The position numbers and the translations under genes are program-made. Positions 1-9,480 of a stretch of DNA of 10,837 bases are shown here, piece after piece (the first letter of the stretch is position 1; each line of letters begins with the position of its first letter). The notes below the pieces were generated by a model. It saw only the letters and a list, made by a program, of their open reading frames with translations. It was not told the origin of the DNA and searched no databases. The stretch lies in the UHGV virus genome UHGV-0335500; one strand, given 5' to 3'. The DNA is from a virus.

Positions 1-58
1 CTGGCCTGTGAACCGGGTGGGTGCTCTGCTCCCGTGGCGGGTTACTCTGCCTGCCTGA

Positions 59-214
59 CCAGCTTCACTTCGTCAATACGGTTCTCACTGCACGCTTACG
101 GATAAATTTCCTTCAGCACAAATCATCATTGCTGCGGATAACGACCACAGCGAAGGAAGACAAAACACGGGGAGAATAGCAGCAGAAAAGGCAGCTTTAT
201 CTGTTTCTGGATGG
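59..214 (+). other. Upstream in-frame continuation of the primase reading frame (Toprim-like acidic motif), cut by a TGA at 56-58
   Basis: Manual translation of the frame of the 215 ORF upstream gives PASLRQYGSHCTLTDKFPSAQIIIAADNDHSEGRQNTGRIAAEKAALSVSGW, contiguous with the ORF. IIIAADNDHSEG resembles the Toprim DxD metal-binding motif. No ATG/GTG/TTG exists in this frame between the TGA at 56-58 and the GTG at 215. Confidence 0.5.
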
Positions 215-2080
215 GTGGCATTACCCCCGACAGATCACAAAGCAGACTGGAATGATTACCACCAAAAACACGGCATTAAATGCGCCACAGAAGCGTTCAA
301 TAAGTCAATGTACCAACCACAGGGTAATGGCGTGAAACAGGAGCCACAGACCATTGAGGGAAGCGATTTTAAGGTTATGGATACCGACCCACTGAAACCA
401 AGAATAGAAAGCCGCGAGGATGGTATTTATTGGGTATCTCCGAGAGCTGACAGCCAGAGTGGAGAAATCATCAATAACGAAAGCTGGTTATGTTCTCCGT
501 TAAGCGTTATCGGTACTGGCAGAGACGATAAAGACCAGTATCTCATTCTTCGCTGGCTGTCGTTTGGTTCTGAAACGCCGACAACCGCTGCCATTCCACT
601 GGCTGATATTGGTGAACGTGAAGGATGGCGCACACTTAAAGCTGGTGGGGTAAATGTCACGACCAAAAGCAGCCTCAGAGCAATACTGGCAGACTGGCTA
701 CAACGCAGTGGCTCTCGTGAATTGTGGCGTGTTGCTCATGCCACTGGCTGGCAATGCGGAGCGTACATCATGCCTGATGGGGAAATCATCGGAACACCTG
801 AAAATCCTGTGCTGTTCAGCGGGAGAAGCTCAGCCGCAGCCGGATATACCGTCTCAGGGAGCGCGAAAAGCTGGCGTGATAACGTGGCGCGTCTGGCCTT
901 TGGTAACTATTCAATGATGACCGGGATCGGCGCAGCACTGGCAGCGCCATTGATTGGGCTGGTGGGCGCTGACGGGTTCGGCATTCATTTCTATGAGCAG
1001 TCGAGCGCAGGTAAGACCACCACGGCAAACGTGGCGAGCAGCTTATACGGCAACCCTGATTTACTGCGGCTGACGTGGTACGGAACCGCGCTGGGGCTGG
1101 CAAATGAAGCCGCCGCCCACAATGACGGACTAATGCCGCTTGATGAAGTTGGTCAGGGCGCTGATCCTGTCAGTGTTTCACAGTCTGCCTATGCGTTATT
1201 TAACGGTGTAGGGAAACTGCAAGGCGCTAAAGATGGTGGAAACCGGGATCTAAAACGCTGGCGTACAGTGGCAATCAGCACCGGAGAAATGGATTTAGAA
1301 ACATTTATCGCTACTTCCGGGCGAAAAACCAAAGCCGGGCAACTGGTGCGACTGCTGAATATTCCGTTGAGTAAAGCAGTACGCTTTCACGATTACCAGA
1401 ACGGAAAACAGCACGCAGACGCACTGAAAGACGCTTACCAGCATCACCACGGCGCGTCCGGGCGTGAGTGGATTAAATGGCTGGCAGACCACCAGCAACA
1501 GGCTATTAAAACTGTTCGTGACTGCGAAAGCAGATGGAGAAGCCTGATCCCATCCGATTATGGTGAGCAGGTTCACCGTGTAGCCGCGCGATTTGCCATT
1601 CTGGAGGCCGCATTGTTGTTAGGCGAGGTTGTAACAGGCTGGGATGCTCAGACATGCCGTGATGCGATACAGCACAGCTATAACGCATGGTTGCGCGAGT
1701 TCGGCACAGGTAACAAAGAGCATCAGCAGATTATTGAACAAACGGAGGCATTTCTTAATGCCTATGGGCTTAGCCGTTTTGCACCATTTCCATACAGCCC
1801 GGCAGATTTGCCCATCAAAGATTTAGCCGGATACCGTCAGCGTGGAGAACATGACGAAAGCCCAATGATTTTCTACACATTCCCGGCCACATTTGAAAAG
1901 GAGATCGCATGTGGTTTCAACGCAAAACAGTTTGCTGAAGTGTTGAAAAAAGCCGGGATGCTAACCCCACCAAACAGCGGTCGTGGATACCAAAGAAAAT
2001 CACCACGTATTCAGGGACGACAAATAAACGTTTATGTACTCAATTACCAGCCAGGAGATTACAACTCATCTGAAGAATGA
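215..2080 (+). CDS. P4 alpha-like primase-helicase, C-terminal NTPase/helicase portion (D5_N / DUF927-type); gene looks 5'-disrupted or N-terminally truncated
   Basis: 621-aa ORF from GTG 215 to TGA 2078-2080. Walker A-like motif HFYEQSSAGKTTTANV sits at about 1007-1021. Overall architecture matches my recollection of P4 alpha-type primase-helicases, and the gene is followed immediately by iterons. Confidence 0.8.
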   Translation: MALPPTDHKADWNDYHQKHGIKCATEAFNKSMYQPQGNGVKQEPQTIEGSDFKVMDTDPLKPRIESREDGIYWVSPRADSQSGEIINNESWLCSPLSVIGTGRDDKDQYLILRWLSFGSETPTTAAIPLADIGEREGWRTLKAGGVNVTTKSSLRAILADWLQRSGSRELWRVAHATGWQCGAYIMPDGEIIGTPENPVLFSGRSSAAAGYTVSGSAKSWRDNVARLAFGNYSMMTGIGAALAAPLIGLVGADGFGIHFYEQSSAGKTTTANVASSLYGNPDLLRLTWYGTALGLANEAAAHNDGLMPLDEVGQGADPVSVSQSAYALFNGVGKLQGAKDGGNRDLKRWRTVAISTGEMDLETFIATSGRKTKAGQLVRLLNIPLSKAVRFHDYQNGKQHADALKDAYQHHHGASGREWIKWLADHQQQAIKTVRDCESRWRSLIPSDYGEQVHRVAARFAILEAALLLGEVVTGWDAQTCRDAIQHSYNAWLREFGTGNKEHQQIIEQTEAFLNAYGLSRFAPFPYSPADLPIKDLAGYRQRGEHDESPMIFYTFPATFEKEIACGFNAKQFAEVLKKAGMLTPPNSGRGYQRKSPRIQGRQINVYVLNYQPGDYNSSEE

Positions 2081-2096: not shown

Positions 2097-2215
2097 AGAA
2101 AAGGTGTTGGTTCAGTTGGTTCAGTTGGTTCAATTTGTAAAGAGTATTGTTTTATAAGGATTTTATTCTTTTTATTGAACCAACACTGAACCAACAACAC
2201 GGCATTTTGAACCAA
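2097..2215. repeat. Iteron cluster A: 3 tight direct TTGGTTCA(G/A) repeats, AT-rich spacer, 3 inverted TGAACCAA repeats; ori/crr-like
   Basis: Direct 9-mers at 2107-2115, 2116-2124 and 2125-2133. AT-rich spacer 2134-2174. Inverted copies (C/T)TGAACCAA at 2175-2183, 2186-2194 and 2207-2215. Positions 2101-2144 are the exact reverse complement of 8601-8644. Lies 17 bp after the primase stop. Confidence 0.8.
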
Positions 2216-2315
2216 CACAACGTGACTGAATTGATGAGCACAACATCTGGCTGGCATTAGAGAGTGTTTTACGAAATCTGAACACCACATCACTGGTTTC
2301 AGTGGGAGATTGATG

Positions 2316-2771
2316 ATGAAGATAATCGCAAAGGCTTTTCATCATGTATTTGGCAAAGTATCCGATTTGCCATCTGTAATACCGATGAACAACAGAAGGG
2401 AGATGCTGCTTGATATGGTTGTGTTCCCATACATAGACCTTTCTGAACCAATGAAAGCAACTCTTTTCAGAAAGTATCTTGGCGACTTTAAACGCCGTTT
2501 TACAGGCGTTAACGGGATGGTTGATATCTGCTCCATCAGAGATATTGTTGAACTTGCAGGGATTAATTTGTGGGGAGAAGCGGCAGCAGCATACAAATGG
2601 CTTGAACGCCTGCACTGTGTTTCATTCAGTGACATGAGTGCTGATATCGCTTTAATGGTTCCTCACAAAATCAATATGGTCTTTGCTGGTGGCAATTACA
2701 CTTATCCATGGAACCAGGAACAAAGAGAGAACAGGAAAGCTCACGCCATGAAGAGTAATGCGACTCCATAA
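2316..2771 (+). CDS. Hypothetical protein (151 aa), stand-alone transcription unit
   Basis: ORF track 2310..2771. Shine-Dalgarno GGGAGA at 2304-2309 is best spaced for the ATG at 2316. An intrinsic terminator follows. No motif recognised. Confidence 0.6.
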   Translation: MKIIAKAFHHVFGKVSDLPSVIPMNNRREMLLDMVVFPYIDLSEPMKATLFRKYLGDFKRRFTGVNGMVDICSIRDIVELAGINLWGEAAAAYKWLERLHCVSFSDMSADIALMVPHKINMVFAGGNYTYPWNQEQRENRKAHAMKSNATP

Positions 2772-2823
2772 ATATAGTTTTTAGAGTCCATAAAAAAACT
2801 GTCAAAACCTGACATACAGAACG

Positions 2824-2856
2824 ATGCCACCAGCTACTGAACGGTGGCATTTTTTT
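2824..2856 (+). terminator. Rho-independent terminator after the 151-aa gene
   Basis: Stem ATGCCACC (2824-2831) pairs with GGTGGCAT (2843-2850), 11-nt loop, then a T run at 2851-2856. Just upstream, TGTCA-N5-TGACA (2801-2815) preceded by an A run could terminate on the opposite strand. Confidence 0.6.
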
Positions 2857-2887
2857 GTGCTATTTGTTTCATATTTTGCAATCACAA

Positions 2888-2918
2888 TGATGAATGTTGC
2901 GTTTTATGAAACTATAAT
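2888..2918 (+). promoter_or_regulatory. Putative sigma70 promoter for the 57-aa/489-aa/701-aa operon
   Basis: Perfect -10 TATAAT at 2913-2918. The -35 is weak (TGATGA/ATGAAT near 2888-2895). Located between the upstream terminator and the strong Shine-Dalgarno at 2941-2947. Confidence 0.35.
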
Positions 2919-2951
2919 GACTGTTGTTTTATACAGTTCTAAGGGGGCGTT

Positions 2952-3125
2952 ATGGCTATTTCAGTAAAGCCAGTATTGATAAGTGAGAAGCAAATGGAAG
3001 CGATAAAGAAAATTCAGGAGGAGCAGCGTAAAAAATCAGAGGTAGGAGTTGCGCCAACGATCCACGAAATTGCTCGGGGATTAATGGATAAGGCGCTGGC
3101 TTACACTTTAACTGGACGTGGGTAA
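2952..3125 (+). CDS. Small (57 aa) Lys/Glu-rich protein, possible ribbon-helix-helix DNA-binding protein; first gene of operon
   Basis: Not in the ORF track (under 60 aa). ATG 2952 is preceded by AAGGGGG at 2941-2947. Translation is MAISVKPVLISEKQMEAIKKIQEEQRKKSEVGVAPTIHEIARGLMDKALAYTLTGRG. The strand-helix-loop-helix pattern is by eye only. Stop TAA at 3123-3125 abuts the next start. Confidence 0.5.
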   Translation: MAISVKPVLISEKQMEAIKKIQEEQRKKSEVGVAPTIHEIARGLMDKALAYTLTGRG

Positions 3126-3129
3126 ATCA

Positions 3130-4596
3130 ATGGCTACGTGGCAACAGGGTATTAATTCTGGTGGTTTTCTGGCTGGCATCGGTACGCAAAATGAGAATGC
3201 GCCAAAGGCAAGCGACATTAACGCAACGCTTGGTCTGATCCGCGAAAACAATGAACTGGCTCGCTCAGGTGCAAATAACGTTGCTCTGACAGGTCTTCGT
3301 GGTCTGGCTGGCGTTGCTGATATTTATAAGCAGCAGCAACAGCAGGAGCGTAAAGCGGCATTCCAGAAAGGTTATGCAGATGCTTATGCGTCCGGTGACA
3401 GGGAGCAGATGCGTAATCTTATTACAGCATTCCCAGAAGAGTTTGAGGAAGTCCGTAAAGGGATGAGTTATGTCGATGATGCTCAAAGGGATGATTATGG
3501 CAATCTGGCGCTCAAAGCACAGGTAGCCTCATCGCTTGGTCAGGGCGCATTTGGCAGGTTCATGATGGATAATGAGCAGGAGATGCGTCGTTTAGGTATC
3601 CCTCCAGAAACTATTGCTGAAATGCAGGTTAATGACCCGCAGGGCTTCCAGCATTTCGCAGGTAATCTGGCGCTGTTTTCTCTCGGTCATGAGAAGTATT
3701 TCGATATCAAAGATCAAATGGAAGGTCGGGATATTGAGCGTGGCAAGTTGGCAGAGACAATCCGCAGCAATCAGGCTGGCGAAGCACTTCAGGCGAGAGG
3801 GCAGGATATTAGCCGAGCAAATGCGTTAACGTCAGCATATGCACCAACAGCAGCAATGCAGAATTACAATCAGTACGCTCAAATGTTAAAGGCGGATCCA
3901 GAGGGGGCGGCGGCATTTGCGGCAGCGGCTGGAATTAATACAAACGCCAAAAAATTAATGAGTGTTAGAGAAAACGATGATGGCACTGTCACAAAATACT
4001 ACACAGACGGAAGTGAAGAGCAGGGAAAACTAAACCAGCCAATATCTGGAGATGGGTTTCGTCCAATAGCTTTGCCAACAGCCCAAAAGATCATGGAAAA
4101 GTCGCCAGAAGGGGCTAAAAAAGCTGCTGGATTTGCATACAGGGTTAGGGATGCTCTTGATTCAATAGATACACTGAAAGACCAGCTTAGCCCACAGCGA
4201 GTGGCGATCATTAATAATGCTTTGGGTAATGGGACGCTGGCTAACTTAACGCTCAGCCCAACAGAACAGCAATACGTTGTTAATGCTAATGACGCAATAA
4301 TGGCAATACTCCGTCAGGAAACAGGGGCAGCCATCGTACCTGCTGAAATGTCAAAATATTATCAAATGTATTTCCCTCAGCCTGGCGACTCCACAAAAAC
4401 CATTGATACCAAGCGCCGGAAGATGGAAAACCAGTTCAATTCGCTGAAAGCTGCTTCTGGTCGAGCTTATGATGCTTTGCGGGTTATTTCAGCAGTTGAC
4501 AGAGGAACTTCTTCTTCGTCGCAGACATTGCCGCAATCTGAGCAGGTATCACAGCCAGCAGCCAGCAGTAACTTTTCTTCACTATGGGGTGATTAA
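3130..4596 (+). CDS. Hypothetical Ala/Gln-rich protein (about 489 aa), no recognisable catalytic motif
   Basis: Long ORF (track 3118..4596 from GTG; ATG 3130 preferred). Contains a poly-Gln run (KQQQQQERK) and is predicted to be largely helical and low-complexity. The stop overlaps the next start as TAATG at 4594-4598. Confidence 0.85.
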   Translation: MATWQQGINSGGFLAGIGTQNENAPKASDINATLGLIRENNELARSGANNVALTGLRGLAGVADIYKQQQQQERKAAFQKGYADAYASGDREQMRNLITAFPEEFEEVRKGMSYVDDAQRDDYGNLALKAQVASSLGQGAFGRFMMDNEQEMRRLGIPPETIAEMQVNDPQGFQHFAGNLALFSLGHEKYFDIKDQMEGRDIERGKLAETIRSNQAGEALQARGQDISRANALTSAYAPTAAMQNYNQYAQMLKADPEGAAAFAAAAGINTNAKKLMSVRENDDGTVTKYYTDGSEEQGKLNQPISGDGFRPIALPTAQKIMEKSPEGAKKAAGFAYRVRDALDSIDTLKDQLSPQRVAIINNALGNGTLANLTLSPTEQQYVVNANDAIMAILRQETGAAIVPAEMSKYYQMYFPQPGDSTKTIDTKRRKMENQFNSLKAASGRAYDALRVISAVDRGTSSSSQTLPQSEQVSQPAASSNFSSLWGD

Positions 4597-6701
4597 TGGC
4601 TAAAGCATGGAAAGATGTTATCGCCTCTCCACAGTATCAGGCGTTAGCACCAGAACAAAAAGCGCAGGCTCAGGAGCAATACTTCAATGAAGTCGTGGCC
4701 CCGCAAGCCGGAGAAAGTGTAGAGCAGGCTAAGCAGGCTTTTTATGCTGCCTATCCACTACCATCAACGAATGAAATAGACCGATCCCAATCAGCAACTC
4801 AAAATATTCAACATACATCATCTGATAATTCTCTTGCGTCAGGGTATGCAAAGTTAGCTACTCAGCAAAGAGAGGGGCTTGAGCGTTCAGCAGAACAGGG
4901 AGCCAGTCTTGGGGCTGCGATGCGCGATGCTATAACAGGCGAAAGCCGAATGACTCCAGAGATGGAGAGACTGCAAAATGTCGACCTTGCCCCAGAGTTA
5001 ACCTCACTCAGCATGGATGCTCTAAAAGCTCGATGGTCTCAACTTTTCGGCTCTGACGCATCTCAGGAAAAGATTCTTCAGAGCATGGGAGCGAAATTAA
5101 GGCAGGATGAGAAGGGTAACACTATCGTTTCCCTGCCATCCGGTGATTATGCTCTGAACAAGCCGGGTTTATCGCCGCAAGACGTGGCATCGTTTCTGGC
5201 TAATGCGCTGGCGTTTACACCAGCGGGCAGGGCTGGAACGGTGCTTGGTGCCATAGGAAAATCAGCAGCTACAGATTTAGCACTACAGGGAGCCACTAGC
5301 CTTGCTGGTGGAGAAGATATTGATCCGTTACAAACGGTAATTTCTGCTGGCATTGGTGGTATTGGTAAGGGGCTGGAAAATACAGCGAGTGCGGTTTCGA
5401 GGGCTGTTCGTGGTGATATGTCGCCTGAAGCAAAGGCTGCTGTCGACTTTGCATCGGAAAGAAATCTGCCGTTAATGACCAGTGACGTACTGAAAGATAA
5501 AAACACTGTGCAGAGTCTGGCCCAGAAAACAGGCGAAAAAATTCCTTTTTTTGGAACGGGTACGAACAGGCTGAATCAACAACAGGCTCGGGAAAATCTG
5601 GTCAGAACATATAACGATGGTCTGGGAGGCATTTCAGATAAACAGCTTTATGAGTCTGCTACTAAAGGGCAGCAAAAATTCATTGAGGCCGCAGGTAAGC
5701 GATATAACCGCATAATTGACGCTATGGGGGATACCCCTGTCGACCTATCAAACACGGTAAAAGCTATCGACAATCAGATTGCCGTGTTAAGCCGCCCGGG
5801 CAAATCTCAGGATAGAGCCGCGGTAAAAGTCTTGCAGCAATTTAAAGACGATATCACCAGCGGGCCAAATGACCTGCGTCTGGCGAGGGAAAACAGAACC
5901 GATCTTCGAAAGCGATTTATGGCGTCATCTGACACTGTTGATAAAGATACGCTCCAGAAAGCCAGCGATATTATCTACAAGGCATATACGGCGGATATGA
6001 AAAAAGCCGTAGCCAAAAATCTTGGAGCAGACGAAGCCATTAATATGGCAAGGGTTGATCGCTCATGGTCTAAATTCAATGACATGATGGGAAGAACGCG
6101 CGTTCAAAAGGCAATAGCCAGCGGCAAGGCCACGCCTGAGGATGTAACAAAACTCGTGTTTAGTCAAAGCCCATCAGAACGTTCTCAGCTTTACAGGCTT
6201 CTGGATGACAATGGTAGGCAAAACGCACGAGCAGCCATAGTTCAGAATGCTGTAGATAAGGCGACTGATCCGTCTGGAAATATCAGTGTTGAGAAGTTTA
6301 TTAATGCGTTACACCGGAACAGGAAGCAATCAGCAACTTTCTTTAAAGGCGTGCACGGAAAGGAACTGGACGGCATTATTAAATACCTCAACGATACCAG
6401 ACAGGCGGCAAAGGTTGACGGTCAGAAATTAAACAGCCAGAAACTTTATGGCCTGCTGGTTGGTGGAGGCGCTATAAATGCGGCAGTTCTGGCGGGGATG
6501 CTGAAAACGGCTGCGTTTGTTGTTCCTGCTGCTGGTGCTTTAGGCGGAGCAGCGAAGGCATACGAAAGCCCTGTTATACGAAATGCCTTATTACGTCTGG
6601 CAAATACGCCAAAAGGTAGCACAGCATATGACAGAGCGATCAGTACAGTCACACAATCACTGACCACAGCAGCACAAGCATCGCAAAAGGAAGCTCAATA
6701 A
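4596..6701 (+). CDS. Hypothetical large protein (701 aa) with glycine-zipper-like hydrophobic segments; possibly membrane-interacting
   Basis: ORF 4596..6701, translationally coupled to the upstream gene. Gly/Ala-rich hydrophobic stretches: TVLGAIGKSAATDLALQGATSLAGG, VISAGIGGIGKGL and C-terminal LYGLLVGGGAINAAVLAGMLKTAAFVVPAAGALGGAAKAY. No canonical Walker A or nuclease motif seen. Confidence 0.9.
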   Translation: MAKAWKDVIASPQYQALAPEQKAQAQEQYFNEVVAPQAGESVEQAKQAFYAAYPLPSTNEIDRSQSATQNIQHTSSDNSLASGYAKLATQQREGLERSAEQGASLGAAMRDAITGESRMTPEMERLQNVDLAPELTSLSMDALKARWSQLFGSDASQEKILQSMGAKLRQDEKGNTIVSLPSGDYALNKPGLSPQDVASFLANALAFTPAGRAGTVLGAIGKSAATDLALQGATSLAGGEDIDPLQTVISAGIGGIGKGLENTASAVSRAVRGDMSPEAKAAVDFASERNLPLMTSDVLKDKNTVQSLAQKTGEKIPFFGTGTNRLNQQQARENLVRTYNDGLGGISDKQLYESATKGQQKFIEAAGKRYNRIIDAMGDTPVDLSNTVKAIDNQIAVLSRPGKSQDRAAVKVLQQFKDDITSGPNDLRLARENRTDLRKRFMASSDTVDKDTLQKASDIIYKAYTADMKKAVAKNLGADEAINMARVDRSWSKFNDMMGRTRVQKAIASGKATPEDVTKLVFSQSPSERSQLYRLLDDNGRQNARAAIVQNAVDKATDPSGNISVEKFINALHRNRKQSATFFKGVHGKELDGIIKYLNDTRQAAKVDGQKLNSQKLYGLLVGGGAINAAVLAGMLKTAAFVVPAAGALGGAAKAYESPVIRNALLRLANTPKGSTAYDRAISTVTQSLTTAAQASQKEAQ

Positions 6702-6760: not shown

Positions 6761-7159
6761 TTAACACTTGCCTTTAACATTGCCGACAAATGAGCCTGTA
6801 AATGAGCCTATATCAGATCGACTAATTGTTCGTGTATGGATCACTTTTCCGTCATTTGAGATTGCCCATGTGACAAGCGTCAGTTGACCATCTCGATAGC
6901 TTCTTCCCATCATGGCATTCGGAGATAGCGGGTAATAATCAATACCTCCACCTATACCATCTTTTGCCAAGATAAGATCCGCCTTCTCTTTACTTATTAC
7001 CAAATGAAAGGTATCTGGTATAGATGATAACTTATAGTTATACCCATCTGAACTTGAGGCTTCTTGTCCTTTCAGATCACCAATAATCCAGCATTCAGCG
7101 TTCGCTCCAAAAGAAGCAAATAATAAACCGGAGACAACCAATCGCTTCAATTGATTCAC
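6761..7159 (-). CDS. Small secreted (periplasmic) protein, about 132 aa with Sec signal peptide; unknown function
   Basis: Lies inside ORF-track 6761..7417 (minus). Preferred start is GTG at 7159-7157, preceded by a strong Shine-Dalgarno AAGGGAGGG. N-terminus MNQLKRLVVSGLLFASFGANA|ECW is a typical signal peptide with an AXA cleavage site. Mature part is about 111 aa with Cys near both ends. Convergent with the 701-aa gene. Confidence 0.65.
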   Translation of the reverse strand: MNQLKRLVVSGLLFASFGANAECWIIGDLKGQEASSSDGYNYKLSSIPDTFHLVISKEKADLILAKDGIGGGIDYYPLSPNAMMGRSYRDGQLTLVTWAISNDGKVIHTRTISRSDIGSFTGSFVGNVKGKC

Positions 7160-7239
7160 ACCAACCCTCCCTTTAGCGTTGTTTAGAATGGCAATCATCA
7201 TATATCCAAGACATGGCATTTGGTACATAGCTTGGGTCG

Positions 7240-7252
7240 GGATTTCAAATCC
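7240..7252. promoter_or_regulatory. 13-bp perfect palindrome GGATTTCAAATCC upstream of the secreted-protein gene; candidate operator
   Basis: Palindrome seen directly, about 80-95 bp upstream of the GTG at 7159 on the minus strand. Confidence 0.35.
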
Positions 7253-7343
7253 GCCCCCGTTGATGGGGTCGTTACAGTACGCGCATATCCGCTTTATGTG
7301 AAACAGGAAGATTTTTCTGATATCACTGCCACAGCAAAACACC

Positions 7344-7367
7344 AATTTCGTGACCAGTACGCGCGCG
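7344..7367. repeat. Dispersed 24-bp repeat, copy R2 (AATTTCGTGACCAGTACGCGCGCG)
   Basis: Shares AATTTC-N2-GA-N2-A-N-TACGCGCGCG with copies at 7631-7656 and 9240-9263. Shorter partial copies sit at 7275-7285 (ACAGTACGCGC) and 7405-7415 (GACCAGTACGC). Confidence 0.6.
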
Positions 7368-7630
7368 AGGGGTATCAGTTGCAAAAAATTTTGCAACTGC
7401 GTCCGACCAGTACGCACACGATGGCGGGGAGCACCATAAAACTGTTCTCTACATAAGACAGAGTGGTGGTGATGTGTTGATTATCGGCGTATATGCGCAC
7501 AGGACGCGCTATGACGATATTTTATGCGGGTACACCAATCACATGTATCTGGTGTGATCAATCGCGTTACATGACATCTCATGTTGTGCTGGTGATTATC
7601 ACGACGTTCTGAATCTGGCCTTTGCCTGAT

Positions 7631-7656
7631 ATTTTGCGACAAGTACGCGCGCGTAG
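7631..7656. repeat. Dispersed 24-bp repeat, copy R4, with perfect palindromic core GTACGCGCGCGTAC
   Basis: ATTTTGCGACAAGTACGCGCGCGTAG. The alternating CG core is self-complementary. Confidence 0.6.
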
Positions 7657-7681
7657 CATCGACAGCATACACATTGGATAT

Positions 7682-7882
7682 TCATTTTGTGACCAATGCG
7701 ATAAGTAGCGGGATAAGAATTGATAAAATCAACAGGACGATGATCCACTTTTGATTCTCGTCCATCTTATCTGCTAGGCGACGCTCCATTCCGTGCATAT
7801 CACCGCGAATGGCAATCATCTCATTGCGAACATCCGAGAAGTGGTTGGCTTGATGTTCAATGTGTGGCGTTCTGCCTTTCAT
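7682..7882 (-). CDS. Small tail-anchored membrane protein (66 aa); possibly XhlA/holin-like
   Basis: ATG at 7882-7880 preceded by Shine-Dalgarno GGTGAGGA. Translation MKGRTPHIEHQANHFSDVRNEMIAIRGDMHGMERRLADKMDENQKWIIVLLILSILIPLLIALVTK has a charged N-terminal part and one C-terminal transmembrane helix. Family assignment is from memory, low confidence. Confidence 0.55.
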   Translation of the reverse strand: MKGRTPHIEHQANHFSDVRNEMIAIRGDMHGMERRLADKMDENQKWIIVLLILSILIPLLIALVTK

Positions 7883-7961
7883 GTCTGATCCTCACCTATC
7901 GTCACCACCTGATGGTGTATAAAGGTATTAGCCCAAGCAGCTTTCCAATGGGCACTCATGT

Positions 7962-8417
7962 TTATACGCTGACCTTACAATCAATCACCGCTTTTAACTT
8001 TTCAGCATTGCTTCCCTGACGCTTCCACGCGCTGTAAATATCTTTATCCCACGCTTTACCAGCTTTTGTTTGATAGCCTGCTTCATTGATCCGTTCAGCT
8101 ATCACACGCCCATTATCAAATCCCTGTTGGATGGTATCGGCAATGATCTTTATAACTGCCGTTTCGTTATATGGTTTTGGTGGGATGTTCGGCTTTCCGG
8201 CAATAAGCGACGCAGCGGCTTTTTCCATGCGCTCCACCAGCCCAAGCATTCGTGAATCAATAGACTTTTCCGGCTGCCCCAGCTTCATGCGAATCGCATC
8301 AACAAGCCAAGAGGTTTTATCTCCTCCAGAAGCGAGAACAGACCGATTAAACTCATCCTGCAATTCAGATGGGATGCGGAACGCGATCAGATTAGATTTG
8401 CTCATTGCAAAGACCAT
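7962..8417 (-). CDS. Ribbon-helix-helix-like DNA-binding protein (147-151 aa)
   Basis: ORF track 7962..8417 (minus); alternative start ATG at 8405-8403 (MSKSNLIAFRIPSELQDEFNRSV...). N-terminus fits a beta-strand plus two helices. Co-directional with and 79 bp upstream of the 66-aa membrane protein gene, so probably one operon. Confidence 0.65.
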   Translation of the reverse strand: MVFAMSKSNLIAFRIPSELQDEFNRSVLASGGDKTSWLVDAIRMKLGQPEKSIDSRMLGLVERMEKAAASLIAGKPNIPPKPYNETAVIKIIADTIQQGFDNGRVIAERINEAGYQTKAGKAWDKDIYSAWKRQGSNAEKLKAVIDCKVSV

Positions 8418-8676: not shown

Positions 8677-8964
8677 ATGATAAAGGACAGGAAAGCTGAA
8701 GAGCTGGAGTCAAAAGGGCTATACCGGAGAGCTGCCGCACGATGGGCAGAAGTCATGATGCTGGCAGATGGCGATAAAGAACGTGAACATGCAGTAAACA
8801 GACGCTCTGAATGTATCCGTAAGGCGGCACGCCCACCAGCAACTACAGACAGATTCGGAGATTTAAGACAGGCAGTTAAGCGGACTCATTCGGCTCTTGG
8901 TATGGATGAGGAAGCGAGAGGGTACTTCAGGCGTTATCGCGATAAAGATTGCCAGAGACAGTAA
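8677..8964 (+). CDS. PerC-family-like small transcriptional regulator (95 aa)
   Basis: ORF with Shine-Dalgarno GAGG 6 nt before the ATG. AEELESKGLYRRAAARWAEVMM resembles the conserved N-terminal signature of PerC/Pch-type regulators as I recall it. Confidence 0.6.
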   Translation: MIKDRKAEELESKGLYRRAAARWAEVMMLADGDKEREHAVNRRSECIRKAARPPATTDRFGDLRQAVKRTHSALGMDEEARGYFRRYRDKDCQRQ

Positions 8965-9263: not shown

Positions 9264-9348
9264 CAGGACAACAAGCCTGAACATGGTTACACACCTCGAT
9301 CCTGAGGGATGTAGACAATGGCTTCTGACCAAAGCACCCGAAAAAACC

Positions 9349-9370
9349 GTGTACATAAGGGTGTACATAA
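9349..9370. repeat. Tandem direct repeat GTGTACATAA-GG-GTGTACATAA; possible recombinase arm-type or regulator binding sites
   Basis: Two identical 10-mers at 9349-9358 and 9361-9370. Confidence 0.45.
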
Positions 9371-9480
9371 TCAAAAATCGCATTAGCAAGAAACCAGCCA
9401 CAATGCGGCATTGAAGCCAACACTCTACAAACAGATTCAGAGTAACTCGTAACACTAATTCTTACTTTTCAGCCTTCACA

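What the first reader, a model, noticed from the sequence alone, without database searches (positions are those of the whole stretch)
4596..6701. 701-aa protein carries glycine-zipper-like hydrophobic segments, suggesting a membrane-active component
Three Gly/Ala-rich hydrophobic stretches (about residues 200-270 and the C-terminal 40 residues) look like GxxxG-type packing helices in an otherwise hydrophilic, Ala/Gln/Lys-rich protein. This pattern is typical of proteins that insert into or perturb membranes, such as phage ejection proteins, pore-forming effectors and some abortive-infection effectors. If this is a defence module it may act by membrane depolarisation.
Basis: inference. Interest (0 to 1): 0.55.

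Follow-up and report, generated by a model that had tools for sequence, protein, structure and literature searches.

The report
Satellite-borne P22 gp16 ejection protein
The 701-residue protein is a homologue of phage P22's gp16, the ejection protein that builds the inner-membrane end of the DNA-injection channel; what is unusual is that the gene sits in a small phage-parasitic island (an EcCIMP1-like PICI), not in a phage.

Summary
The ORF at 4596-6701 is real and intact. It is a full-length member of the P22 gp16 "DNA transfer/ejection protein" family (phrog_770 E=2.6e-155; PF26808 on the identical database protein). It is translationally coupled to a gp20 homologue at 3130-4596 (Pfam Inj_translocase, 1.6e-83).

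The Gly/Ala-rich, charge-poor segments exist at residues ~190-270 and ~615-656. The second is not the last 40 residues. In this sequence alone they barely exceed chance. They are, however, the most hydrophobic and G/A-rich positions across 120 divergent homologues. AlphaFold leaves them unmodelled (pLDDT <50) outside a confident helical core. P22's SieA-escape residues G532 and P546 align to G623 and K637, inside the C-proximal segment. "Membrane-active ejection protein" is therefore supported. "Defence effector that depolarises the membrane" is not: there are no PADLOC hits.

The gene lies in a ~16.4 kb island between yicC and dinD with no capsid, tail or lysis genes. The island's core proteins are 97-99.6% identical to EcCIMP1, a published PICI mobilised by the P22-like phage Kapi1. 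The cassette leader occurs in 498 of 5426 complete E. coli genomes. The gp16 copies are under purifying selection (dN/dS 0.06-0.16).

Most likely role: ejection proteins made by the satellite and loaded into helper capsids. That role is inferred and has not been tested.

The parts
1..2080 (+). C-terminal two thirds of the island's primase-helicase (Zn-ribbon + TOPRIM + DUF927). The gene starts upstream of the window.
   Evidence: Pfam DUF927 1.7e-47. The full 918-aa protein in L001 has Zn_Ribbon_Prim, Toprim_3 and DUF927. It is 99.6% identical to the EcCIMP1 primase.
2105..2218 (.). Candidate replication origin: three direct GGTTCA(GT) repeats, an AT-rich spacer, then three inverted TGAACCAAC repeats, directly after the primase stop codon.
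   Evidence: Read from the alignment of the window with two other island copies, where the stretch is invariant. Its function as an origin is inferred from position and repeat structure only.
2310..2771 (+). 153-aa ORF of low G+C (~39-40%). It is an insertion relative to other copies of the island. Function unknown.
   Evidence: Absent from L004 and L005 in the alignment. No hit in Pfam, PHROGs, PADLOC or NCBIfam. G+C profile.
2833..2855 (+). Intrinsic-terminator-like hairpin with a T-run, separating the replication module from the ejection-protein cassette.
   Evidence: Found in the scan and conserved in three island copies.
2952..3125 (+). 57-aa leader ORF that heads the cassette in every island copy examined. 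It is preceded by a TATAAT with no recognisable -35 element. A possible small DNA-binding protein (my guess, untested).
   Evidence: Annotated as a CDS in RefSeq copies. 92-100% identical between islands. The 2780-3125 stretch is present in 498 of 5426 complete E. coli genomes. No Pfam hit.
3130..4596 (+). P22 gp20-family ejection protein (488 aa from the ATG at 3130; the mechanical ORF starts at GTG 3118). This is the '489-aa partner'.
   Evidence: Pfam Inj_translocase 1.6e-83 and phrog_917 1.1e-142. N-terminal 236 aa are 53% identical to ST104 gp20, and the first ~66 aa are nearly identical. dN/dS 0.15-0.32 among island copies.
4596..6701 (+). P22 gp16-family ejection ('DNA transfer') protein, 701 aa: the protein in the finding. 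Its ATG overlaps the gp20 stop codon by one base (TAATG), as in P22 and ST104.
   Evidence: phrog_770 2.6e-155 over residues 19-700. The identical database protein carries PF26808 Phage_P22_gp16. 31% identical to ST104 gp16 over the full length, 30% to P22 gp16, 67% to phage N7 ORF13. Start/stop overlap read. dN/dS 0.06-0.16.
4596..4775 (+). N-terminal module of the gp16 homologue (residues 1-60), nearly identical to that of otherwise 31%-identical phage alleles. Modelled as a confident long helix.
   Evidence: BLASTP against ST104 gp16. DNA 86-92% identical to P22-like phages over 3120-4758 in pieces. AlphaFold pLDDT 79-88 for residues 1-50.
5163..5405 (+). Gly/Ala-rich, charge-poor, moderately hydrophobic region (residues 190-270).
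   Evidence: AlphaFold pLDDT <50 for residues 192-274.
5418..6416 (+). All-helical core (residues ~275-607), the best-conserved and best-modelled part of the protein.
   Evidence: AlphaFold pLDDT mostly 70-90. Alignment occupancy ~1.0 across 120 homologues. No significant match to any solved structure.
6438..6563 (+). C-proximal hydrophobic Gly/Ala-rich pair of segments (residues 615-656; halves 617-636 and 638-653 separated by K637). Candidate membrane-inserting hairpin.
   Evidence: KD19 maximum 1.71. Conserved as the most hydrophobic stretch of the family. P22 gp16 G532 and P546 (SieA-escape positions, PMC10461980) align to G623 and K637. AlphaFold pLDDT <50 for residues 608-659.
6761..8405 (-). 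Variable accessory region of the island: three reverse-strand ORFs (132 aa at 6761-7159, 66 aa at 7682-7882, 147 aa at 7962-8405). Functions unknown. Other island copies carry an Abi-family gene here.
   Evidence: RefSeq annotation. phrog_2651 and phrog_6324, both of unknown function. No PADLOC hits.
8677..8964 (+). PerC-family regulator, a typical gene of Gram-negative PICIs.
   Evidence: Pfam PerC 5.5e-33. 53% identical to EcCIMP1_025, which represses LEE1 expression experimentally (PMC11773190).
9348..9372 (.). Right-hand att-like repeat (CGTGTACATAAGGGTGTACATAATC). It matches repeats just upstream of the integrase gene and probably marks the island's end.
   Evidence: Exact 10-12 nt matches between L001 7839-7862 and 24249-24272. 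Sequence read. No excision evidence.

Best explanation
The 701-aa protein is a P22 gp16-family ejection (E-) protein. In P22-like podoviruses, gp7, gp20 and gp16 are packed inside the capsid and expelled through the tail before the DNA. They then assemble a conduit across the envelope, and gp16 forms the inner-membrane end.

By homology, this protein's conserved, charge-poor, Gly/Ala-rich segments (residues ~190-270 and 615-656) are the parts that refold and enter the inner membrane, while the helical core (residues 275-607) oligomerises.

The gene is not in a phage. It is part of a leader-gp20-gp16 cassette placed directly after the primase and origin of an EcCIMP1-like phage-inducible chromosomal island integrated between yicC and dinD.

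The most likely role is as follows. When a P22-like helper phage induces the island, the island's own gp20 and gp16 alleles are made and loaded into helper-built capsids, using the helper's gp14 and gp7. Particles carrying the island then inject with the satellite's version of the two most variable, exclusion-sensitive conduit proteins.

What is shown: family membership, synteny, the island context, purifying selection, and conservation of the segments. What is inferred: loading into helper capsids, membrane insertion through these particular segments, and any benefit to the satellite.
For: Identity:
- phrog_770 E=2.6e-155 over the full length.
- PF26808 Phage_P22_gp16 on the identical protein P0001 and on all close homologues.
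- Full-length 31% identity to ST104 gp16 and 30% to P22 gp16.
- Homologues at 68-89% identity sit in canonical portal-scaffold-coat-gp4-gp10-gp26-gp14-gp7-gp20-gp16 clusters.
- The gp20 stop and gp16 start overlap by one base, as in P22 and ST104.

Segments:
- They are conserved across the family as the hydrophobic, G/A-rich, charge-poor positions.
- AlphaFold does not bury them.
- The SieA-escape positions of P22 gp16 map into the C-proximal segment (with PMC10461980).
- gp16 membrane and liposome association and its inner-membrane location are reported in the literature summarised in PMC10461980 and PMC8954989.

Island:
- It has an integrase, AlpA, AntA, Ash, a primase and PerC, but no structural or lysis genes.
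- Its core proteins are 97-99.6% identical to EcCIMP1, which is excised only with helper Kapi1 and transduced by it (PMC11773190).

The cassette is a standard, functional part of these islands:
- It holds the same position in islands at two attachment sites and with two primase types.
- The leader is present in 498 of 5426 genomes, and this gp20-gp16 allele in 302.
- All five copies examined are intact, with dN/dS 0.06-0.16, the same range as between phage copies.

The satellite supplies different alleles from its helper. EcCIMP1 against Kapi1: gp14 83%, gp7 57%, gp20 26%, gp16 slot 23.5% identity.
Against: - No experiment shows that island-encoded gp20 or gp16 enters virions. [quoted passage not shown]
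- This island lacks gp14 and gp7, which other copies carry, so its gp20 and gp16 must work with foreign partners if they work at all.
- The hydrophobicity is marginal. KD19 of 1.71 is within what shuffles of the sequence give (p=0.16). A simple sum of approximate Hessa scale values, recalled from memory, gives +3.3 kcal/mol for the best window.
- The GenBank record of Kapi1 notes a DeepTMHMM result of 'outside 1-723', that is no transmembrane helix, for its gp16-slot protein. That protein belongs to a different PHROG.
- According to PMC10461980, Perez et al. found that P22 gp16 residues 476-609 are dispensable for membrane association in vitro. The C-proximal segment therefore cannot be the only membrane determinant.
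- The AlphaFold model has a mean pLDDT of only 62.9. Low confidence in the two segments is absence of evidence, not proof of refolding.
Confidence: 0.62

Rival explanations
1. Interference or exclusion role. The island's gp20 and gp16 act as dominant-negative subunits. Either they are co-assembled into helper progeny and lower its infectivity, or they sit in the inner membrane of the island-bearing cell and block conduit assembly by incoming P22-like phages, giving SieA-like superinfection exclusion.
For: EcCIMP1 adds to superinfection immunity against Kapi1 in lysogens, by an unknown mechanism (PMC11773190, read). The satellite's gp20 and gp16 alleles are very different from the helper's, which would favour mismatched assemblies. 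The inner-membrane protein SieA acts on exactly these two proteins (PMC10461980). Many satellites do interfere with helper morphogenesis (general knowledge of PICIs and P4).
Against: Kapi1 titres from induced lysogens are unchanged by EcCIMP1 (PMC11773190), which argues against strong sabotage of the helper. The immunity effect was not mapped to the cassette. Full-length, strongly constrained genes with phage-like dN/dS and conserved translational coupling suggest the complete original function is retained rather than a decoy. There are no PADLOC hits.
Confidence: 0.2
2. Inert remnant. The cassette is a fragment of a P22-like prophage captured by recombination and simply carried along, with no present function.
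For: The neighbouring gp14 and gp7 genes are missing in this copy. E-protein genes are highly mosaic and recombine often (PMC10461980; DNA patches 86-92% identical to phages).
Against: All five copies compared are intact at 701 aa. dN/dS is 0.06-0.16 with dS up to 0.23. The cassette holds the same position, behind the same leader ORF, in islands with different integrases, attachment sites and primases. The leader occurs in 498 genomes and is split by identity into about 223 and about 278 genomes, which I read as the forms without and with gp14-gp7. EcCIMP1 carries another full set of alleles in the same place.
Confidence: 0.06
3. The pair is an abortive-infection module whose 701-aa effector depolarises the host membrane on phage infection.
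For: The protein has conserved hydrophobic segments and belongs to a membrane-associating family. It lies next to the island's variable region, where sister islands carry an Abi-family gene.
Against: No window protein matches any PADLOC model. Both proteins are full-length orthologues of virion proteins whose close relatives are ordinary phage structural genes. No sensor or toxin-type domain was found.
Confidence: 0.05

Closest known systems
Phage P22 gp16 and its homologues (ST104/L gp16, Sf6 gp13, phage N7 ORF13); Pfam PF26808 Phage_P22_gp16, phrog_770
   Same: Full-length sequence homology. The same one-base stop/start overlap with the upstream gp20 gene. The same two Gly/Ala-rich, charge-poor regions flanking a helical core. 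An N-terminal 60-residue module nearly identical to ST104 gp16.
   Different: It is encoded by a satellite island with no capsid, portal, tail or lysis genes, instead of in a virion assembly operon. In this copy gp14 and gp7 are absent. At 701 aa it is longer than P22 gp16 (609 aa), and it is only ~30% identical to the experimentally studied protein.
EcCIMP1, the PICI of E. coli MP1 mobilised by the P22-like phage vB_EcoP_Kapi1 (Pick, Stadel and Raivio, ISME J 2025, PMC11773190)
   Same: The replication and regulation core is nearly identical (primase 99.6%, AntA 97%, the small ORFs 93-100%). The order is the same: primase, origin, leader ORF, E-protein cassette, variable region, PerC.
   Different: The integrase (29% identity) and attachment site differ (yicC/dinD against tRNA-Thr near proA). 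AlpA differs. EcCIMP1 has gp14, gp7, a 26%-identical gp20 and a 906-aa gp16 with an N-terminal lytic transglycosylase domain. Mobilisation of the island in this window has not been tested.
Phage T7 gp16 (internal core / ejectosome protein)
   Same: Functional analogue. It is carried in the virion, ejected before the DNA, is soluble yet binds liposomes, has hydrophobic regions that are folded before ejection and are proposed to cross the inner membrane afterwards, and occupies the syntenic last position among the ejection genes (PMC8954989).
   Different: There is little recognisable sequence similarity. T7 gp16 is 1318 aa and has an N-terminal transglycosylase domain, which is absent here but present in the EcCIMP1 allele.
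P4-like satellites and classical E. coli PICIs (EcCICFT073, EcCIEDL933)
   Same: P4-type integrase with an Arm DNA-binding domain, an AlpA regulator, an Ash-family protein, a large primase followed by an origin, PerC, and a size of 10-20 kb (PMC11773190).
   Different: None of psu, sid or delta was annotated or detected. The accessible literature describes no ejection-protein cassette in those elements. The helper class of the related EcCIMP1 is a P22-like podovirus.

Membership tests
P22 gp16 ejection-protein family (PF26808 / phrog_770) | Significant full-length match to the family profile | tested here: met
   phrog_770 E=2.6e-155, residues 19-700 against profile positions 3-667 of 668. PF26808 is precomputed on the identical protein P0001. 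The local Pfam copy lacks this model, so the direct Pfam scan found nothing.
P22 gp16 ejection-protein family (PF26808 / phrog_770) | Lies immediately downstream of, and is translationally coupled to, a gp20 (Inj_translocase) gene | tested here: met
   gp20 homologue at 3130-4596 (Pfam 1.6e-83). TAATG overlap at 4594-4598. The same shared coordinate is seen in ST104 and P22.
P22 gp16 ejection-protein family (PF26808 / phrog_770) | Encoded in the virion-assembly gene cluster of a P22-like phage (portal ... gp14-gp7-gp20-gp16) | tested here: not met
   The island has no portal, coat, terminase, tail or lysis genes. In this copy gp14 and gp7 are also absent.
P22 gp16 ejection-protein family (PF26808 / phrog_770) | Conserved hydrophobic, Gly/Ala-rich regions credited with membrane association | tested here: met
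   The columns aligned to residues 190-270 and 611-655 are the most hydrophobic, most G/A-rich and least charged across 120 homologues. [quoted passage not shown]
P22 gp16 ejection-protein family (PF26808 / phrog_770) | Packaged in virions, ejected before the DNA, and associated with the inner membrane | not testable with these tools
   This needs virion proteomics, ejection assays and cell fractionation.
EcCIMP1-like PICI (phage-inducible chromosomal island) | Gene set and order: integrase, AlpA, primase plus origin, no structural or lysis genes, size ~10-20 kb, flanked by direct repeats | tested here: met
   Annotation of L001. Domains. Iteron-like repeats after the primase gene. ~16.4 kb between att-like repeats. 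Core proteins 97-99.6% identical to EcCIMP1.
EcCIMP1-like PICI (phage-inducible chromosomal island) | Excision, replication and high-frequency transfer that depend on a helper phage | not testable with these tools
   This was shown for EcCIMP1 with Kapi1 (PMC11773190), not for the island in this window.
Known anti-phage defence systems (PADLOC-DB models), including Abi-type membrane effectors | Match to a defence-system protein model | tested here: not met
   No hit for any of nine window proteins at E<=0.01.
Transmembrane glycine zipper ((G,A,S)xxxGxxxG / GxxxGxxx(G,S,T), Kim et al. 2005, recalled from memory) | The motif lies inside a membrane-spanning hydrophobic helix and is enriched beyond what the composition predicts | tested here: inconclusive
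   Motifs occur at residues 98, 210, 251 and 255, and none is in the 617-653 hydrophobic pair. Small-xxx-small-xxx-small count is 23 against 18+/-4.4 in shuffles (p=0.17). No transmembrane predictor was available.

The most novel reading that the evidence does not exclude
EcCIMP1-like satellites carry their own, deliberately different gp20 and gp16 alleles in order to re-equip helper-built P22-like capsids with a satellite-specific injection channel. gp20 and gp16 are the targets of the prophage inner-membrane exclusion protein SieA. Such a swap would let satellite particles inject into cells already lysogenic for a helper, which are the recipients a satellite most needs and which exclude the helper's own virions. 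This would be the first case of a satellite pirating the DNA-delivery step rather than capsid size, packaging or tails.
Probability: 0.3. Interest if true: 0.7.

Novelty: new member of a known kind. Interest (0 to 1): 0.35.

Why it matters
The protein itself is ordinary: a well-known class of phage ejection protein whose membrane association is already documented. The value of the finding lies in its context.

A whole family of E. coli phage satellites keeps an intact, selected gp20-gp16 cassette, with or without gp14 and gp7. The cassette leader is present in about 9% of complete genomes. The one paper on this satellite family mentions these genes only as hypothetical "DNA transfer-like" proteins.

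If satellites supply their own injection channel, host range and superinfection exclusion of transducing particles would be set by the satellite and not by the helper. That affects how virulence and defence islands spread. It also gives a natural set of gp16 and gp20 alleles for working out how SieA-type exclusion operates.

Tried and rejected
- **Solved structures.** Sequence searches of the PDB with gp16L and gp20L found nothing below E=0.1. Foldseek of the AlphaFold model against the PDB gave no match below E=0.4.
- **Unreadable papers.** A 2026 preprint on the in situ P22 channel appeared in a search but could not be opened. Perez et al. 2009 was also not held, so its results are cited second-hand.
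- **The 153-aa ORF as gp14.** I tested whether the ORF at 2310-2771 is a gp14 homologue, since it is the same size. BLASTP found no similarity and no family matched.
- **Defence reading.** Rejected after no PADLOC or NCBIfam hits.
- **Glycine zipper as a statistical feature.** Rejected by shuffling.
- **Island contexts in other genera.** I checked whether close homologues elsewhere are also in islands. The Salmonella, Yersinia, Klebsiella and metagenomic examples I looked at were all ordinary P22-like prophages.
- **Literature on satellites with ejection proteins.** Searches found only the EcCIMP1 paper and a general review.
- **Not attempted.** I did not check whether genomes carrying the island also carry a P22-like prophage or a sieA gene.

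Full report
**What is at the coordinates**

The ORF at 4596-6701 (+) is real. It encodes 701 aa from an ATG, with no internal stop. The ATG overlaps the stop codon of the upstream 488/492-aa ORF by one base (TAATG at 4594-4598) and is preceded by a GGGGTGA ribosome-binding site.

The upstream protein matches Pfam Inj_translocase, described as the "DNA/protein translocase of phage P22 injectosome", meaning gp20 (E=1.6e-83). It also matches phrog_917 (1.1e-142).

The 701-aa protein matches phrog_770, "DNA transfer protein", over its whole length (E=2.6e-155). The local Pfam copy has no model for it. The identical sequence in the large protein collection (P0001, a cluster with 2417 member sequences) carries PF26808 Phage_P22_gp16, as do all its homologues.

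Pairwise comparisons:
- 31% identity over the full length to phage ST104 gp16 (4e-89).
- 30% to P22 gp16 over residues 210-683.
- 67% to ORF13 of Escherichia phage N7.
- 86-89% to an E. coli prophage allele.

Homologues at 51-89% identity from Salmonella, Yersinia, Klebsiella, E. coli and a metagenome all lie in ordinary P22-like prophages. Where the contig extends far enough, the order is the canonical portal-scaffold-coat-gp4-gp10-gp26-gp14-gp7-gp20-gp16. An exhaustive search found 1381 cluster representatives at 50% identity with E<=0.001. The protein is therefore a member of a large, known family of podovirus ejection proteins, and its "489-aa partner" is gp20.

**The observation**

Residues ~195-265 are Gly/Ala-rich (26 of 71; p=0.003) and charge-poor, but only moderately hydrophobic (best 19-residue Kyte-Doolittle window 0.95).

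The second region is at residues 615-656 (LYGLLVGGGAINAAVLAGML-K-TAAFVVPAAGALGGAA; 20 G/A in 42 residues; KD19 maximum 1.71). It is not the last 40 residues, which are hydrophilic.

Judged on this sequence alone, the signal is weak. Against 5000 shuffles, only the G/A clustering is unusual (p~0.01). The hydropathy peak (p=0.16), the longest uncharged run (p=0.57) and the small-xxx-small-xxx-small count (23 against 18+/-4.4) are not unusual. Strict glycine-zipper motifs occur at residues 98, 210 and 251, and not in the most hydrophobic segment.

Conservation makes the segments real. In an alignment of 120 homologues from clusters at <=50% identity, the columns aligned to residues 190-270 and 611-655 are the family's most hydrophobic, most G/A-rich (0.4-0.5) and least charged (0.03-0.13) positions. 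No member has a window above KD 1.2 anywhere in the 300-600 core.

**Structure**

AlphaFold2 was run on a 41-sequence alignment and gave a mean pLDDT of 62.9.
- Residues 1-50 form a confident N-terminal helix (pLDDT 79-88).
- Residues 115-190 form a small alpha/beta unit.
- Residues ~275-607 form an all-helical core (pLDDT mostly 70-90).
- Both Gly/Ala-rich regions (192-274 and 608-659) fall below pLDDT 50.

Low confidence is still not positive evidence of membrane insertion. Nothing in the PDB resembles the protein by sequence or by fold.

**Link to known function**

The following comes from the literature I could read.
- P22 virions carry gp7, gp16 and gp20. These are released before the DNA and assemble a conduit across the periplasm.
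- The conduit still mostly forms without gp16, which is placed at the inner membrane.
- gp16 binds membrane preparations and helps DNA enter liposomes.
- The prophage inner-membrane protein SieA blocks injection, and escape mutations map to gp20 and to gp16 G532W and P546S (PMC10461980, read).
- A review states that putative transmembrane helices were identified in all the gp16-like homologues it examined, and that T7 gp16 refolds to cross the inner membrane (PMC8954989).

In my alignment, P22 G532 and P546 correspond to G623 and K637 here, at the start and at the central break of the C-proximal hydrophobic pair. That ties this segment to events at the inner membrane.

One caution applies. PMC10461980 reports that P22 residues 476-609 are dispensable for membrane binding in vitro. 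The N-proximal Gly/Ala region, which aligns to P22 residues ~128-185, is therefore at least as good a candidate for membrane binding.

**Context**

The window matches a chromosomal island in E. coli. The best match is strain ISHS7, at 99.6% identity over 99% of the window.

The island lies between yicC and dinD and spans ~16.4 kb between GTGTACATAA-type repeats. Its gene order is:
- a P4-type integrase;
- an AlpA-family regulator;
- AntA, DUF4222 and Ash proteins, followed by several small ORFs;
- a 918-aa Zn-ribbon/TOPRIM/DUF927 primase;
- the cassette;
- three reverse-strand ORFs of unknown function;
- PerC.

There are no capsid, terminase, tail or lysis genes. Directly after the primase stop codon are three GGTTCA repeats and three inverted TGAACCAAC repeats, which look like an origin. 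Then come a terminator, a TATAAT, a conserved 57-aa leader ORF, gp20 and gp16.

A literature search found EcCIMP1, a PICI of E. coli MP1. It excises only when the P22-like phage Kapi1 is present and is transduced by that phage. [quoted passage not shown]

The core proteins of the island in this window are 97-99.6% identical to EcCIMP1's. The integrase (29% identity) and the attachment site differ.

EcCIMP1 has the same layout with a full gp14-gp7-gp20-gp16 set. Its gp16 is a 906-aa phrog_770 protein with an N-terminal lytic transglycosylase domain.

Sister islands occur at yicC/dinD or at tRNA-Thr, with a DUF927 or a DUF5906 primase. They carry this same gp16 allele either with gp14 and gp7 (L004, L014) or without them (this window, L005, L015).

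**Is the cassette functional?**

- The leader stretch occurs in 498 of 5426 complete E. coli genomes. About 223 of these match at >=95% identity. About 278 match at 90-95%, and the listed hits in that band stop near query position 321 of the 346-base leader query. I read the first group as the 57-aa leader form followed by gp20-gp16 only, and the second as the 53-aa leader form followed by gp14-gp7-gp20-gp16.
- This gp20-gp16 allele occurs in 302 genomes.
- The primase/origin type occurs in 363 genomes.
- Five island copies of gp16 are all intact at 701 aa, with dN/dS 0.06-0.16 at dS up to 0.23. That is the same range as between bona fide phage copies (0.11-0.17). gp20 gives 0.15-0.32.
- The first ~60 residues of gp16 and ~66 residues of gp20 are nearly identical to those of otherwise ~31-36%-identical phage proteins. 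The corresponding DNA is 86-92% identical to P22-like phages. This is the mosaic exchange typical of these genes, and it suggests continued compatibility with phage partners.
- In the one validated satellite-helper pair, the satellite's alleles differ sharply from the helper's: gp14 83%, gp7 57%, gp20 26%, gp16 slot 23.5% identity.

**Interpretation**

Identity as a gp16-family ejection protein is essentially certain.

The best-supported role is that the satellite makes its own gp20 and gp16, which are loaded into helper-built capsids and form the periplasmic and inner-membrane parts of the injection channel for satellite DNA. That role is inferred.

Rivals:
- A dominant-negative or exclusion role. 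EcCIMP1 does add superinfection immunity, but Kapi1 titres are unchanged and the effect was not mapped to the cassette.
- An inert remnant. Selection, prevalence and conserved placement argue against this.
There are no PADLOC hits, and both proteins are full-length orthologues of virion proteins.

**Novelty**

The protein family and the satellite family are both published, so this is a new member of a known kind.

The accessible literature does not recognise that these satellites systematically carry a complete or partial P22 ejection-protein cassette under selection. Nor does it test what that cassette does.

The most novel reading not excluded is that the satellite swaps the helper's injection channel for its own to escape SieA-type exclusion in helper lysogens.

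Noticed in passing
window 2105-2218: Three direct GGTTCA(GT) repeats and three inverted TGAACCAAC repeats flank an AT-rich stretch immediately after the primase stop codon. The stretch is invariant in three island copies. It looks like an iteron-type origin of the satellite.
   Followed up: partly
window 2310-2771 (+): A 153-aa ORF with ~39-40% G+C is inserted here relative to sister islands L004 and L005. It has no match in Pfam, PHROGs, PADLOC or NCBIfam and no similarity to gp14, despite being the same size. It may be an accessory gene acquired next to the origin.
   Followed up: partly
window 2833-3125 (+): A terminator, then a TATAAT without a -35 element, then a conserved 57-aa ORF (MAISVKPVLISEKQMEAIKKIQEE...) head the ejection-protein cassette in every island copy. 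The strand-helix-helix look suggests a ribbon-helix-helix regulator, but no family matched. A 53-aa variant precedes cassettes that include gp14 and gp7.
   Followed up: partly
window 6761-8405 (-): Three reverse-strand ORFs of unknown function (phrog_2651, phrog_6324 and one weak hit) occupy the island's variable slot. Sister islands carry an Abi-family gene there (L005, L014, L015), so this is probably the satellite's accessory or defence hotspot.
   Followed up: no
window 8677-8964 (+): PerC-family regulator, with a weak ANR-family hit. It is 53% identical to EcCIMP1_025, which was shown to repress LEE1 expression in Citrobacter rodentium rather than activate it.
   Followed up: no
window 9348-9372 and L001 7839-7862: GTGTACATAA(T) repeats flank the island: several copies upstream of the integrase gene and two copies upstream of dinD. 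They are probably att core or arm-type sites and define a ~16.4 kb element.
   Followed up: partly
L011 6481-9201 (EcCIMP1) and L019 30414-32582 (Kapi1): EcCIMP1's gp16-slot protein is a 906-aa fusion of a lytic transglycosylase domain with a phrog_770 body, the architecture of T7 gp16. Its helper's gp16-slot protein belongs to a different PHROG (6704). The satellite and its helper therefore use different gp16 types.
   Followed up: partly
L005 13210-15312: RefSeq marks this gp16 copy as 'incomplete; missing C-terminus', yet the 701 codons I extracted translate without any stop and are 97.9% identical to the window protein. This may be an annotation artefact.
   Followed up: no
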